Assembly: GCA_038087875.1 (NCBI GenBank)
Contig: CM075979.1
Span: 21,762,001-21,826,000 of the forward strand
Source of the DNA: Malacoraja senta
Lineage: Eukaryota
Direction: 5' to 3'
DNA: 64,000 nucleotides
Position numbers: made by a program. Of this stretch, positions 31,101 to 34,100 are shown one piece after another (the first letter of the stretch is position 1; each line of letters opens with the position of its first letter).

Positions 31101-34100
31101 CCCATTGAGTCTACTCTGCCATTCAATCAATCATGGCTGAGCTAGCGCTCAACCTCTCAACCCCATTCCATCTCACCCCATTCAACTGCCTTCTCCCCAT
31201 AACCTTTAATGTCTTTACTAATCAAGAACCTGTCAATCTCCACTTTAAAAATACCCAATGACTTGGCCTACACTGCCATCTGTGGCAATGAATTCAACAG
31301 ATTTACCACCCTCTGGCTAAAGAAATTCCTCCTCATCTCTTTTCTAAAGGTATGTCTTGTAATCTTGTCATTTTTTTTGCACTTTTGTATTACAGAAGCA
31401 GAAATTCATCTGTCCAAAAGCTCAATAATTGGAAGCATCATTGGAAGTGTACTTTTTTCTGTAATGCTGTTAACGGCTGGAATTTACCTGTACATGCTGT
31501 ACATTTATAAAGGTAATGCTTATCTACTGTGGATGAATTTATAGAAAACGATTCAAAGAATCTTAAGTTATTTGGCTGGGGTACAATTAAATCTTTTTGC
31601 CTTCATGCTAATTTTAGTTTCATGTTTAAAAAATTCAACGTGGAAACATACCCTTCAGCCCACCGAGTCCACGCCAACCATCGATCATCCGTTCACACTA
31701 GTTCTATGTTATCCCACTTTCTCATTCACTCCCAACACACTTGGGACAATTTACAGAGGACAAATAACCCACAAACCCGCACGTTTTGGGGATGTGGGAG
31801 GAAACCGCAGCACCTGGAGAAAACCCACGCTGTCGCAGAGAGAACGTGTAAACTCCACACAGACAGCCCCAATGTTAGGATCGACCCCGGGGTTCTGGCG
31901 CTGTGAGGCAGCAGCTCTACCGTCTGCACAACTGTGCTGACCTAATTGTATAATTTTCTAGTTAACCTGTGCTGCACAAACTTGTGACAATTTTGGCATT
32001 GCCAACTATACTGTAAATGATTAATCTACTAACTATAAATGATCAATGATATTGTTGGTTAAGTTTGGTCCCACAAACAGTATTTAGCAGATATTTGTTA
32101 ATGATTATTTAAATTGATGTTCTTATTCCATTTCAAGTCCATTGCTCTGTGAAAGTGGTAACACAAGTAGATGGAGTGGTAACAAAGGCATAGGAGATGC
32201 TTGCCTTCACTGGTCGGGGAATGGCGTATAAGAGTCAGGATTTATAGGACTTTGGTTAGGCCACATTTAGAGTATTGCATGTGATTCTGATTGCCCATTA
32301 CCGGAAGGATGTGGAGGCTTAGGCAAGGGTGCAGAAAAGGTTCACCAAAATATTGCCTGGATTAGAGGGTTTTAGCTGCAAGGAGAGATGGGATAGACTT
32401 GGATTGTTTTCTCTAGAATCACCAGAAGATACGGGAGGCCGGATAGAGGTATATAAAATTATAGAAAGGATAGACAGTTGGAACCTCTTTCCCTGGATGG
32501 AAATGTCAAAGACTAGAGGGCAGAGATTTAAGGTGAAAGGGACAAAGTTTTAAATATATACGCAGGGCCAGTTTATTTTACACAGTTTATTATGGGTACC
32601 TGGAACCTGCTGCCAGGGATGGTGGTGGAGGCAGAAACGATAATTTTTATTTTAGAGATTTTTAGATAGGCACATAGACATGCAGTGAATGGAGGGATAT
32701 GGATCATGTGCAAGCAGAAGAGATTAGTTTAACAACATTATGATGGGCACAGACTTTGTGGGTCAAAGGCCTGTTCCTGTGCTATGCTGTTCTATGACTA
32801 TAAGTATTGGTTTAATTTGATATTCATCAGTCAGAAATGCTGATACCTCTATATAAGAATTCATATCCTCCATGCACTTAGTGCCATGAAATTGTAGGTG
32901 CAGTTTGATACAAATGTTTGTATTCATTAAACATTATCTTCTAACTTCAGAATGGCAGGCAGTGACTAGTGGGGACCGCAAGGCTCGGTGCTGGGACTGC
33001 AGCTATTTACAATATACATCAATGATTTGGATGAAGGGATTTAAAGTAACATTAGCAAATTTGCAGATGACACAAAGCTGGGTGGCAGTGTGAACTGTGA
33101 GGAGGATGCTATGAGAATGCAGGGTGACTTGGACAGGTTGGGGGAGTGGGCAGATGCATGGCAGATGAAGTTTAATGTGGATAAATGTGAGGTTATCCAC
33201 TTTGGTATCAAAAACAGGAAGGCAGATTACTATCTAAATGGCGTCAAGTTGGGAAAAGGGGAAGTACAACGGGATCTGGGGGGTCCTTGTTCATCAGTCT
33301 ATGAAAGTAAGCATGCAGGTACAGCAGGCAGTGAAGAAAGCGAATGGCATGTTGGCCTTTATAACAAGAGGAGTATAGTATAGGAGCAAAGGGGTCCTTC
33401 TGCAGTTGTACAGGGCCCTAGTGAGACCACACCTGGAGTATTGTGTGCAGTTTTGGTCCCCTAATTTGAGGAAGGACATTCTTGCTATTGAGGGAGTGCA
33501 GCGTAGGTTCACTAGGTTAATTCCCGGATGGCGGGACTGTCATATGCTGGGAGAATGGAGAGGCTGGGCTTGTACACTCGAGTTTAGAAGGATGAGAGGG
33601 GATCTTATTGATTGTTAAGGGTTTGGACACGCGAGAGGCAGGAAACATGTTCCCGATGTTGGGGGAATCCAGAACCAGGGGCCACAGTTTAAGAATACGG
33701 GAAAAGCCATTTAGAACGGAGACAAGGAAACACTTTTTCTCACAGAGAGTTGTGAGTCTGTGGAATTCTCTGCCTCAGAGGGTGGTGGAGGCCGATTCTC
33801 TGGATACTTTCAAGAGAGAGCTAGATAGGGCTCTTAAATATAGTGGAGTCAGGGGATATGGGGAGAAGGCAGGAACGGGGTACTGATTGGGGATGATCAG
33901 CCATGATCACATTGAATGGCGGTGCTGGCTCGAAGGGCCGAATGGCCTACTCCTGCACCTATTGTCTATTGTCTAACTCATGATAGTTGTGAATTTTAAC
34001 ATTGAAGCAGTTCACTTGCCTTTGATCTAATTCAATATCCTTATTGGTCTGAAGTGATCTGTTATTAAGAAATGTTGGGCTAATCTAGATGGCGGACCTG

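What the first reader, a model, noticed from the sequence alone, without database searches (positions are those of the whole stretch)
31396..31600. TM exon as a three-way switch: long tail, short tail, or secreted 8-Ig form
Seen: exon 4 is 117 bp and phase 1-1, so skipping keeps the frame and gives a secreted V+7xC1 chain resembling an Ig heavy chain in layout. Reading through its donor adds GNAYLLWMNL* (stop at 31542-31544), followed by ATTAAA at 31586-31591 and a U-rich tract, which would give a conventional short-tailed B7. Inference: one locus could produce three topologies by splicing and intronic polyadenylation, reminiscent of Ig secretory/membrane switching.
Basis: inference. Interest (0 to 1): 0.66.

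Follow-up and report, generated by a model that had tools for sequence, protein, structure and literature searches.

The report
Internal membrane-anchor exon in shark-type B7-H6 gene
A B7-H6-like immune gene carries its membrane-anchor exon in the middle, ahead of six more antibody-type domain exons, so it may make both a short membrane form and a long secreted form, but the sequence alone cannot show which forms are made.

Summary

The exon is a real membrane-spanning (TM) exon. It is the only site on either strand of the window that passes a TM-exon filter, against a mean of 0.075 in surrogates.

The stop, hexamer and T-tract are not distinctive. Exon 7 has the same trio, and 3 of 9 donors have a hexamer within 42 nt of their read-through stop. 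In-frame skipping is generic, because exons 2-9 are all phase 1-1.

The gene is a B7-H6 (NCR3LG1)-type gene:
- The V and first C1 exons hit human B7-H6.
- A Kir6.2-like gene lies convergent downstream, as beside human NCR3LG1.

Six further divergent but intact C1 exons follow the TM exon. They have no leader of their own, no later TM, and end in a stop.

Most likely there are two mutually exclusive products: membrane V-C1-TM, and secreted V+7 C1 with exon 4 skipped. A 10-exon "long tail" form would put six Ig domains in the cytosol and is implausible.

No transcript or orthologue data could be reached, so the switch remains inference.

The parts
26210..26276 (+). Leader exon, coding part: ATG, hydrophobic signal peptide, phase-1 donor
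   Evidence: It is the only leader-like exon found by the scan. The surrounding 500 bp (26001-26500) have GC 0.63 and CpG o/e 0.72.
26797..27147 (+). V exon (351 bp, phase 1-1), B7-H6-type V domain
   Evidence: Pfam V-set E=3.8e-5, 24.3 bits, below the cut-off of 26. In the PDB search, 3 of 7 hits at E<=0.01 are human B7-H6 (best E=2.3e-5); the other 4 are CEACAM1.
29162..29488 (+). C1a exon (327 bp, phase 1-1)
   Evidence: Pfam C1-set 30.0 bits. In the PDB search, B7-H6 chains rank 5, 7 and 8 of the 60 shown (E=5e-9 to 1.5e-8) and are the only non-antibody hits among them.
31396..31512 (+). TM exon (117 bp, phase 1-1): short extracellular stalk, hydrophobic span of about 25 residues, then Y-K
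   Evidence: It is the unique pass of the TM-exon filter. It lies in a stretch (31351-31640) with no other copy in the window, between two interspersed repeats.
31513..31544 (+). Read-through of the exon-4 donor: 10 more residues, then TAG
   Evidence: It is not distinctive: read-through tails of 9 to 85 residues follow the other donors.
31586..31591 (+). ATTAAA, candidate intronic poly(A) hexamer
   Evidence: It is one of 104 such hexamers on the + strand.
31597..31636 (+). T-rich tract after the hexamer (T fraction 0.475)
   Evidence: Rank 7 of 104 sites by T content. The matching site after exon 7 ranks 2 of 104.
34682..35095 (+). C1b exon (414 bp, phase 1-1), with a long loop insertion
   Evidence: Pfam C1-set 32.4 bits. 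The AF2 model has mean pLDDT 83.5, with residues 58-70 and 72-77 below 50.
37011..37373 (+). C1c exon (363 bp, phase 1-1)
   Evidence: Pfam C1-set 36.8 bits. PDB hits are generic C1 domains: best SIRP-alpha E=1.5e-6, UrIg2 E=2.5e-4.
37799..38107 (+). C1d exon (309 bp, phase 1-1, weakest donor at 5 of 9 consensus matches)
   Evidence: Pfam C1-set 57.4 bits. The exon end was read. PDB hits are generic C1 domains: Ig light and heavy chains, MHC-I alpha3, UrIg2 E=3.6e-13.
39441..39767 (+). C1e exon (327 bp, phase 1-1); the second canonical Cys is replaced
   Evidence: Pfam C1-set 46.5 bits; alignment A1; 36% identical to C1d, E=5e-20.
43182..43493 (+). C1f exon (312 bp, phase 1-1); the first canonical Cys is replaced
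   Evidence: Pfam C1-set 19.1 bits, below the cut-off of 21. The AF2 model has pLDDT 93.2. Best Foldseek PDB matches are MHC-II alpha2/beta2, Ig CL and IgM C2 domains, TM-score 0.66-0.79.
45626..45927 (+). C1g exon, ending K-L-Q-V then TAA; a weak phase-0 GT overlaps the last codons
   Evidence: Pfam C1-set 31.7 bits; sequence read.
46935..46940 (+). First AATAAA after the exon-10 stop (about 1 kb downstream), candidate end of the gene
   Evidence: T content after it is 0.475, rank 7 of 104.
61569..62834 (-). Neighbour gene: uninterrupted Kir6-type (KCNJ11-like) open frame, convergent with the Ig gene
   Evidence: Pfam IRK and IRK_C, E=1e-54 and 1.8e-63. In the PDB search, Kir6.2 scores E=6.7e-161 and Kir6.1 9.6e-154.

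Best explanation
The 117-bp exon is the genuine membrane-spanning (TM) exon of a B7-H6 (NCR3LG1)-type gene in a non-mammalian vertebrate. A cartilaginous fish is probable, but that is inference. The gene lies next to a Kir6.2-like gene, as human NCR3LG1 does.

The gene has one leader, one B7-type V exon, one C1 exon and this TM exon. Six further old, divergent but intact C1-set exons follow, and the last is followed directly by a stop with no second anchor. Ig domains placed after a TM segment would sit in the cytosol, so the locus most likely gives two mutually exclusive products decided at exon 4:
1. A membrane V-C1-TM form. It ends in or shortly after exon 4, either by cleavage and polyadenylation near 31.6 kb (tail of about 11 residues) or through a tail exon I could not recognise.
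2. A secreted chain of V plus seven C1 domains. Here exon 3 is spliced to exon 5, and the skipped exon and its candidate poly(A) site are removed with the intron.

The 10-exon reading would be a by-product or an annotation artefact.

Shown: the exons, their phases, domain types, gene identity, the single leader, and the absence of a later TM. Inferred: that exons 5-10 are transcribed with exons 1-3, that exon 4 is skipped in some transcripts, and where the short form ends.

My confidence by step:
- TM exon real and gene B7-H6-type: about 0.85.
- Exons 5-10 belong to the same gene: about 0.6.
- Two-product model: about 0.45.
- Poly(A) site at about 31.6 kb: about 0.3.
For: - The TM exon is unique under the filter: 1 site in 128 kb, against a mean of 0.075 in 40 surrogates.
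- The exon and 138 bp after it have no other copy in the window, although 71% of intron 4 does.
- V exon: 3 of 7 PDB hits at E<=0.01 are B7-H6. C1a: B7-H6 chains are the only non-antibody hits among the 60 shown.
- A Kir6.2-like gene lies convergent downstream. Human NCR3LG1 is described as a neighbour of KCNJ11/ABCC8 within one TAD (passage in section 9 of PMC8065166).
- C1-set is the best Pfam family for all 7 C exons, and 6 of 7 exceed the cut-off. All are open from acceptor to donor in phase 1-1.
- The weakest domain, C1f, still models as a confident C1 fold.
- C1a resembles C1d (27%, E=3e-13) about as much as the downstream exons resemble one another.
- The leader scan recovers exon 1 and finds none in intron 4. 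A CpG-rich stretch occurs only at exon 1 among the 16 windows measured, which covered 24-28 kb and 31-35 kb.
- No TM-grade segment lies between exon 10 and 60.7 kb at the threshold exon 4 passes. A stop follows directly after the last G strand.
- The junction codons 3-to-4, 3-to-5 and 4-to-5 are all sense codons.
- Precedent: membrane versus soluble B7-family forms are set by a poly(A) site in intron 4 of PD-L1 (search listing and abstract starts of PMC6877088, PMC8765052 and PMC10741404).
Against: - There is no transcript, 3'-end, protein or orthologue evidence of any kind.
- The stop, hexamer and T-tract after exon 4 are matched or beaten at exon 7, and a hexamer also follows the exon-6 read-through stop.
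- Exon 4 has ordinary splice sites (15 of 20 pyrimidines, donor 6 of 9), so nothing marks it as a weak, skippable exon.
- Two of the six downstream domains have lost a canonical cysteine. This could mean relaxed constraint.
- The downstream C1 exons show no specific B7-H6 affinity in the PDB searches made. C1c and C1d hit generic C1 domains. C1b, C1e, C1f and C1g were not searched by sequence.
- Hydrophobic stretches of lower grade exist downstream of exon 10: 18 at a mean hydropathy of at least 1.7. A missed TM exon cannot be excluded.
Confidence: 0.45

Rival explanations
1. There are two units. The B7-H6-type gene ends with exon 4 (plus a short tail). The six downstream C1 exons are not part of its mRNA. 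They are a relic of an old multi-C1 gene, or they belong to a transcript whose first exons I did not recognise.
For: - V-C1-TM is the complete, usual B7-H6 ectodomain and anchor (IgV-IgC1 architecture stated in section 5 of PMC11926128).
- C1e and C1f have each lost a canonical Cys.
- C1c and C1d show no specific B7-H6 affinity.
- A stop and a hexamer follow exon 4.
Against: - Six exons only 14-36% identical to one another are all still open, in phase, with AG/GT borders. Unused relics of that age should carry stops.
- Five of these six score above the Pfam cut-off.
- No leader exon was found in intron 4 or anywhere in 27148-45625, apart from one candidate that abuts exon 9.
- No Ig-like frame was seen upstream of exon 1 in the frame list, by eye. 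Of those frames, 10 lying at 2.7-22.8 kb were scanned with Pfam and none gave an Ig family.
Confidence: 0.25
2. The gene is secreted-only. Exon 4 is an ancestral TM exon that is now always skipped, and the gene encodes only the 8-Ig secreted chain.
For: - Skipping keeps the frame (junction codon 3-to-5 is a sense codon).
- The gene ends in a stop without an anchor.
- An elasmobranch precedent exists for a secreted-only non-rearranging V plus C1 chain, UrIg (section 4 of PMC12227049).
Against: The exon keeps an intact hydrophobic span, correct phase and ordinary splice sites. It sits in a repeat-free stretch between two repeat insertions. An unused exon would be expected to decay, although 39 open codons alone are only weak evidence of use.
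Confidence: 0.1
3. The membrane form uses a distal tail. Exon 4 is spliced over exons 5-10 to an unrecognised cytoplasmic exon (in intron 4 or beyond 46 kb), not ended by intronic polyadenylation. The secreted long form still arises by skipping exon 4.
For: - Exon 4 has a normal phase-1 donor, which a purely terminal exon would not need.
- The hexamer after it is not distinctive.
- Four further stretches of intron 4 (99-292 bp each) have no other copy in the window and could hide a small exon.
Against: No candidate exon was identified. None of the 11 frames scanned beyond 46 kb other than the channel gene gave a Pfam family. Skipping six consecutive good exons is unusual.
Confidence: 0.1
4. 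One reading: the long-tail 10-exon form, the short-tail form and the secreted form are all functional products.
For: All three are frame-compatible. No premature stop would mark the 10-exon mRNA for decay.
Against: Six C1-set Ig domains with conserved disulfide cysteines in four of them and N-x-S/T sites in two would lie in the cytosol. I know of no such protein, and none appeared in searches.
Confidence: 0.07

Closest known systems
Human B7-H6 / NCR3LG1 (PDB 6yjp, 3pv6, 4zso)
   Same: - One V and one C1 domain followed by a TM segment.
- It is the best PDB relative of the V exon and the best non-antibody relative of C1a.
- It is a neighbour of KCNJ11.
- A soluble form exists in people (section 9 of PMC6514059).
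   Different: - The human soluble form is reported to arise by metalloprotease shedding (same passage), not by splicing.
- Here six extra C1 exons follow the TM exon.
- The Gag-like cytoplasmic exon that I recall for the human gene (recalled, from no call) was not met in any frame scanned.
UrIg and UrIg2 of elasmobranchs (non-rearranging V plus several C1 domains; PDB 9dmx)
   Same: - A germline-joined V exon is followed by a run of C1-type exons: 3 in UrIg (secreted only), 9-11 in UrIg2 (with TM) (sections 4 and 7 of PMC12227049).
- Domain number is plastic.
- C1c and C1d hit the UrIg2 chain (E=2.5e-4 and 3.6e-13).
   Different: - The V here is B7-type. The UrIg2 chain and Ig/TCR V domains are absent from its 7 PDB hits.
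- The UrIg2 hits of C1c and C1d are no better than those to ordinary Ig, MHC or SIRP C1 domains.
- The C domains here are old and divergent (14-36%), not homogenised duplicates.
- The TM exon lies inside the gene, not at its 3' end.
- The gene lies next to KCNJ11. UrIg is reported in the MHC and UrIg2 in the antigen-receptor complex.
Membrane versus soluble switching by intronic polyadenylation or TM-exon skipping (PD-L1 intron 4; immunoglobulin mu secreted/membrane choice)
   Same: One gene gives an anchored or a free product, decided by competition between a splice and a poly(A) site next to the TM exon. For PD-L1 I saw the search listing and abstract starts of PMC6877088, PMC8765052 and PMC10741404. 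The Ig mu case is recalled.
   Different: The polarity is reversed. Here early termination would give the anchored short form, and full-length splicing the free long form. None of it has been observed for this locus.

Membership tests
B7-H6 / NCR3LG1 | Ectodomain of one V-set and one C1-set Ig domain, each on its own phase 1-1 exon | tested here: met
   Pfam V-set scores 24.3 bits (below its cut-off) and C1-set 30.0 bits. The IgV-IgC1 architecture of B7-H6 is stated in section 5 of PMC11926128.
B7-H6 / NCR3LG1 | Closest sequence relatives among named proteins are B7-H6, not other B7 members | tested here: met
   V exon: the best 3 of 7 PDB hits are B7-H6, and no other B7 member appears at E<=0.01. 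C1a: B7-H6 ranks 5, 7 and 8 of the 60 shown and no other B7 member is listed. Only solved structures could be searched. The large protein databases were closed.
B7-H6 / NCR3LG1 | Single-pass TM segment after the C domain | tested here: met
   Exon 4.
B7-H6 / NCR3LG1 | Conserved neighbourhood with KCNJ11 | tested here: met
   A Kir6.2-like frame lies at 61569-62834 on the - strand. The human neighbourhood comes from a passage of PMC8065166. The relative orientation in the human genome is recalled only.
B7-H6 / NCR3LG1 | Binds NKp30 (NCR3) | not testable with these tools
   No binding data are available, and no NCR3 gene lies in the window.
B7-H6 / NCR3LG1 | Long Gag-like cytoplasmic exon (a feature of the human gene, recalled; it may not define the family outside mammals) | tested here: not met
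   None of the frames scanned with Pfam downstream of exon 4 gave a Gag-type family. Only frames of 100 residues or more were sampled, not all of them.
UrIg / UrIg2 | Antigen-receptor-type VJ domain related to Ig/TCR V | tested here: not met
   The V exon hits B7-H6 and CEACAM1 only. No Ig/TCR V domain and no UrIg2 chain appears at E<=0.01, although 9dmx is in the library.
UrIg / UrIg2 | Run of several C1-type domain exons after the V exon | tested here: met
   There are seven C1-set exons. UrIg has 3 and UrIg2 has 9-11.
UrIg / UrIg2 | Location in the MHC (UrIg) or the antigen-receptor complex (UrIg2) | tested here: inconclusive
   The window shows KCNJ11-like and RPL27A-like neighbours and no MHC, Ig or TCR gene. 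64 kb is too little to place the locus.
Splice versus poly(A) switch of membrane and secreted forms | Alternative transcripts that differ by use of the TM exon and of a poly(A) site beside it | not testable with these tools
   No transcript collection was available. The sequence signals are present but not distinctive.

The most novel reading that the evidence does not exclude
In this lineage the B7-H6 gene, known elsewhere only as a two-domain NK-cell ligand on the cell surface, also encodes a free, antibody-like chain. That chain has a B7-type V domain on a stalk of seven C1 domains and is made by skipping an internal TM exon. It would be a further class of non-rearranging humoral Ig-like molecule beside UrIg and UrIg2, built on an NKp30-ligand V domain, and therefore a candidate soluble partner or decoy for the expanded shark NCR3 family.
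Probability: 0.3. Interest if true: 0.7.

Novelty: new variant of a known kind. Interest (0 to 1): 0.5.

Why it matters
- If the long form is real, a ligand of an NK-cell receptor exists in an early-branching vertebrate as a secreted eight-domain chain. That bears on how secreted Ig-like effectors arose from membrane B7/MHC-region genes. The recent UrIg/UrIg2 work raises the same question.
- It would also give a natural case in which an internal TM exon, rather than 3' TM exons, sets membrane versus secreted fate.
- For annotation, a pipeline that simply strings all ten exons together would predict a protein with six cytosolic Ig domains. Such models should be checked against transcripts.
- If the downstream exons turn out to be unused, the locus is an ordinary B7-H6 orthologue and the finding is minor.

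Tried and rejected
- **TM exon by chance:** rejected.
- **Second leader in intron 4:** none found; the positive control recovered exon 1.
- **Second TM after exon 10:** at the threshold exon 4 passes, nothing lies before 60.7 kb. That one hit sits beside the 3' side of the channel gene. At a looser threshold there are 18 ordinary hydrophobic frames, none with exon features that I could assess.
- **Separate CpG-type promoter before exon 5:** none in 31-35 kb.
- **UrIg/UrIg2 membership:** rejected on the V domain.
- **ESM Atlas leads for V and C1a:** only generic V-set and C1-set clusters, no named B7-H6 cluster.
- **PDB searches of C1c and C1d:** generic C1 hits only, so I did not spend searches on C1b, C1e, C1f and C1g.
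- **LTR pairs:** 0 direct-repeat families of at least 150 bp within 15 kb.
- **Pfam on 20 further frames:** 0 families.
- **Literature:** four searches for a multi-C1 B7-H6 gave nothing on the point. Three key papers were not held: PMC3709836 on B7H6 evolution, PMC10530332 on UrIg and PMC4594805. Supplements, for example the UrIg2 gene-structure figures of PMC12227049, were closed.
- **Human origin of the contig:** not my reading. The V exon scores only 27.8 bits against human B7-H6, and the gene layout differs.
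Full report
**1. The observation**

- AG is at 31394-95, the exon runs 31396-31512 (117 bp), and GT is at 31513-14.
- Two bases complete a codon at the start and one is left at the end, so the exon is phase 1-1.
- The exon encodes a short stalk, a hydrophobic span of about 25 residues, and Y-K.
- Reading on through the donor adds G-N-A-Y-L-L-W-M-N-L and then TAG at 31542-44.
- ATTAAA lies at 31586-91, followed by a T-rich stretch.
- The window has no N.

**2. The gene around it**

Open frames and a splice-site scan (with for two exon ends) give this model on the + strand:

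| Exon | Coordinates | Note |
|---|---|---|
| Leader | 26210-26276 | |
| V | 26797-27147 | |
| C1a | 29162-29488 | |
| TM | 31396-31512 | |
| C1b | 34682-35095 | |
| C1c | 37011-37373 | |
| C1d | 37799-38107 | |
| C1e | 39441-39767 | |
| C1f | 43182-43493 | |
| C1g | 45626-45924 | followed by TAA |

- Exons 2-9 are all phase 1-1.
- Pfam gives C1-set as the best family for all 7 C exons, and 6 of 7 score above the curated cut-off. C1f scores 19.1 bits against 21.
- V-set is the best family for exon 2, at 24.3 bits against a cut-off of 26.
- The TM and leader frames give no family.

The joined 9- or 10-exon protein was not built, searched or folded. Every search below is of one exon. This leaves whole-chain similarity, domain pairing and dimer prediction open.

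**3. Which gene it is**

- The V exon has 7 PDB hits at E<=0.01. Three are human B7-H6/NCR3LG1 (E about 2.5e-5, aligned through the F and G strands). Four are CEACAM1 (E 1.6e-3 to 9.3e-3). No other B7 member, no Ig/TCR V domain and no UrIg2 chain appears.
- C1a has 1934 hits at E<=0.01. Among the 60 shown, B7-H6 chains rank 5, 7 and 8 (E 5e-9 to 1.5e-8). All the others are antibody heavy chains.
- On the - strand at 61569-62834 lies an uninterrupted inward-rectifier channel frame (Pfam IRK and IRK_C). Its best PDB relatives are Kir6.2/KCNJ11 (E=6.7e-161), ahead of Kir6.1 (9.6e-154).
- In people, NCR3LG1 is a neighbour of KCNJ11/ABCC8 in the same TAD (passage in section 9 of PMC8065166).

Sequence and neighbourhood together make this a B7-H6-type gene.

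The contig is not human by my reading, because similarity to human B7-H6 is only about 28-40 bits. A cartilaginous-fish origin is my inference. It rests on the repeat families (recalled) and on the kind of gene, and was not tested.

**4. Is the TM exon real?**

I built a filter requiring four things: mean hydropathy of at least 2.2 over 20 residues, an open frame, an AG preceded by at least 13 of 20 pyrimidines in the right phase, and a phase-1 GT with at least 6 of 9 consensus matches.
- Exactly 1 site in the 128 kb of both strands passes, and it is this exon.
- 40 second-order Markov surrogates gave 0 sites in 37 cases and 1 site in 3 cases, a mean of 0.075.
- The thresholds were chosen after seeing the exon, which flatters the number. 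The margin is large even so.

The exon with its flanks (31351-31640) has no other copy in the window. It is bracketed by interspersed repeats: 31000-31350 has 10 other copies and 31640-31960 has 11.

**5. Are the switch signals more than chance?**

They are not.
- AWTAAA occurs 200 times on both strands (shuffles give 143 +/- 12) and 104 times on the + strand, one per 615 bp.
- I read every one of the 9 donors through to its stop. The tails are 9 to 85 residues long.
- A hexamer lies within 42 nt of the stop at 3 of the 9 donors: exon 4 at 42 nt, exon 6 at 40 nt, exon 7 at 26 nt.
- The T content of the 40 nt after the hexamer ranks 7 of 104 for the exon-4 site, 2 of 104 for the exon-7 site and 53 of 104 for the exon-6 site.

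Exon 7 therefore shows the same trio of short tail, ATTAAA and U tract, and shows it more strongly. In-frame skipping is a property of all phase 1-1 Ig exons. Exon 4's own splice sites are average for the gene.

One mild point favours a site here. The 138 bp after exon 4 (31513-31650) are one of only five stretches of at least 80 bp in intron 4 without another copy in the window, and 71% of the intron has one.

**6. Do exons 5-10 belong to the same gene?**

For:
- A scan for ATG, a hydrophobic core and a phase-1 donor recovers exon 1. It finds nothing in intron 4. Across 27148-45625 it finds a single weak candidate, which abuts exon 9.
- The only CpG-rich stretch among the 16 windows measured is at exon 1.
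- All six exons are open, in phase and bordered by AG/GT, although they are only 14-36% identical to each other. That speaks for long-standing constraint.
- C1a is as close to C1d (27%, E=3e-13) as the downstream exons are to each other. The best pairs are C1d-C1e (36%, E=5e-20) and C1c-C1g (27%, E=4e-11).
- The weakest domain, C1f, models with pLDDT 93.2. It matches MHC-II membrane-proximal, Ig CL and IgM C2 domains at TM-score 0.66-0.79.
- C1b models at pLDDT 83.5, with one low-confidence loop of about 20 residues.

Against:
- C1e lacks the second canonical Cys and C1f lacks the first.
- C1c and C1d hit only generic C1 domains (SIRP-alpha, Ig, MHC-I, UrIg2), with no B7-H6 among the 60 shown.

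After exon 10 the frame stops at once (K-L-Q-V, TAA). The first AATAAA follows about 1 kb later, at 46935. No TM-grade stretch lies before 60.7 kb.

**7. How it most likely works**

A signal peptide, an ectodomain, a TM segment and then six Ig domains would put those six domains in the cytosol. Four of them keep both disulfide cysteines and two carry N-x-S/T sites. I therefore take the 10-exon reading to be a by-product or an annotation artefact.

The sensible products are two:
- A membrane V-C1-TM form that ends at or soon after exon 4.
- A secreted V plus seven C1 form in which exon 3 joins exon 5. That junction codon is a sense codon.

The decision would be a competition at exon 4 between including the exon with early 3'-end formation and skipping it. 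The logic is that of PD-L1 intron-4 polyadenylation (listing and abstract starts) and of the immunoglobulin mu choice (recalled), but with the polarity reversed.

All of this is inference from anatomy. The rivals, with my confidence in each:

| Rival | Confidence |
|---|---|
| Two units, or downstream exons a relic | 0.25 |
| Secreted-only gene with an obsolete TM exon | 0.10 |
| Membrane form with an unrecognised distal tail exon | 0.10 |

**8. Comparison with what is known**

- **Human B7-H6** is closest by sequence and neighbourhood. It has two Ig domains only. Its soluble form is reported to come from shedding (section 9 of PMC6514059).
- **UrIg and UrIg2** are closest by layout. UrIg has a VJ domain plus 3 C1 domains and is secreted. 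UrIg2 has a VJ domain plus 9-11 C1 domains and a TM (sections 4 and 7 of PMC12227049). Membership fails on the V domain. The C domains here are old and divergent rather than homogenised.
- One survey notes that NCR3LG1 groups more readily with TAPBP/TAPBPL than with other B7 ligands (section 10 of PMC13262535). That fits its C1-type domain.
- I found no paper describing a B7-H6 gene with extra C1 exons or an internal TM exon. Three relevant papers were not held and supplements were closed, so this is not proof of absence.

**9. What stayed unchecked**

- No vertebrate genome or transcript collection was available.
- As a result no orthologue, annotated gene model or expression evidence was seen.

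**10. Verdict**

- The TM exon and the V+7 C1 layout are real.
- The gene is a B7-H6 orthologue with an unusual 3' half.
- The proposed switch is plausible in a two-way form but untested, and the cited termination signals carry no weight by themselves.
- Interest 0.5; new variant of a known kind.

Noticed in passing
window 61569-62834 (- strand): An uninterrupted Kir6.2/KCNJ11-like open frame sits in a GC-rich stretch (GC 0.50-0.57). It is convergent with the Ig gene and serves as the synteny anchor for the B7-H6 call.
   Followed up: yes
window 17989-18297 (- strand) and 16419-16549 (- strand): One frame matches residues 48-106 of ribosomal protein L27a/uL15 (E=3e-31). An H/ACA snoRNA of the SNORA3/SNORA45 family lies 1.4 kb away on the same strand (80 bits, gathering score 51). 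Together they look like an intron-containing RPL27A gene hosting a snoRNA. The other exons were not mapped.
   Followed up: partly
window 38108-38179: Exon 7 (C1d) has the same configuration as the finding: a 13-residue read-through tail, an ATTAAA 26 nt after the stop, and the second most T-rich downstream sequence of 104 sites. It is either a second candidate early end, which would give a V plus four C1 form when exon 4 is skipped, or simply shows how common the pattern is.
   Followed up: partly
window 39441-39767 and 43182-43493: C1e has lost the second canonical cysteine and C1f the first. C1f nevertheless models as a confident C1 fold.
   Followed up: partly
window 34682-35095: C1b is unusually long (137 residues). 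It has a loop of about 20 residues that AF2 cannot place, at residues 58-77 of the exon translation. Whether this is a true insertion or a very small unrecognised intron was not resolved.
   Followed up: no
window 4430-6094 (+ strand): This is the retroelement-type (virus-like) content. A 555-codon open frame carries a reverse-transcriptase domain (Pfam RVT_1, E=4e-34). No LTR pair of at least 150 bp lies within 15 kb anywhere in the window, so it looks like a non-LTR element. It was described only, and its completeness was not analysed.
   Followed up: partly
window 28606-28998 (- strand) and 33045-33380 (+ strand): Two smaller retroelement pieces lie in the introns of the Ig gene. One is a GIY-YIG nuclease-like frame in intron 2 (E=1.8e-4, below the cut-off). 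The other is a weak reverse-transcriptase fragment in intron 4 (E=2.7e-3, below the cut-off). 71% of intron 4 has another copy elsewhere in the window.
   Followed up: partly
window 22282-22560 (- strand): A 93-residue frame hits Pfam ALKBH8_N (E=6e-15, 55 bits, cut-off 21). No neighbouring exons were looked for, so it is unclear whether this is a gene fragment or part of a repeat.
   Followed up: no
window 25396-25908: A CT-rich minisatellite (periods 13-134 bp, up to 23 copies) lies 300-800 bp upstream of the start codon of the Ig gene.
   Followed up: no
window 41616-41928: A tandem repeat of 72 bp, 4.3 copies, 94% matches, lies in intron 8.
   Followed up: no
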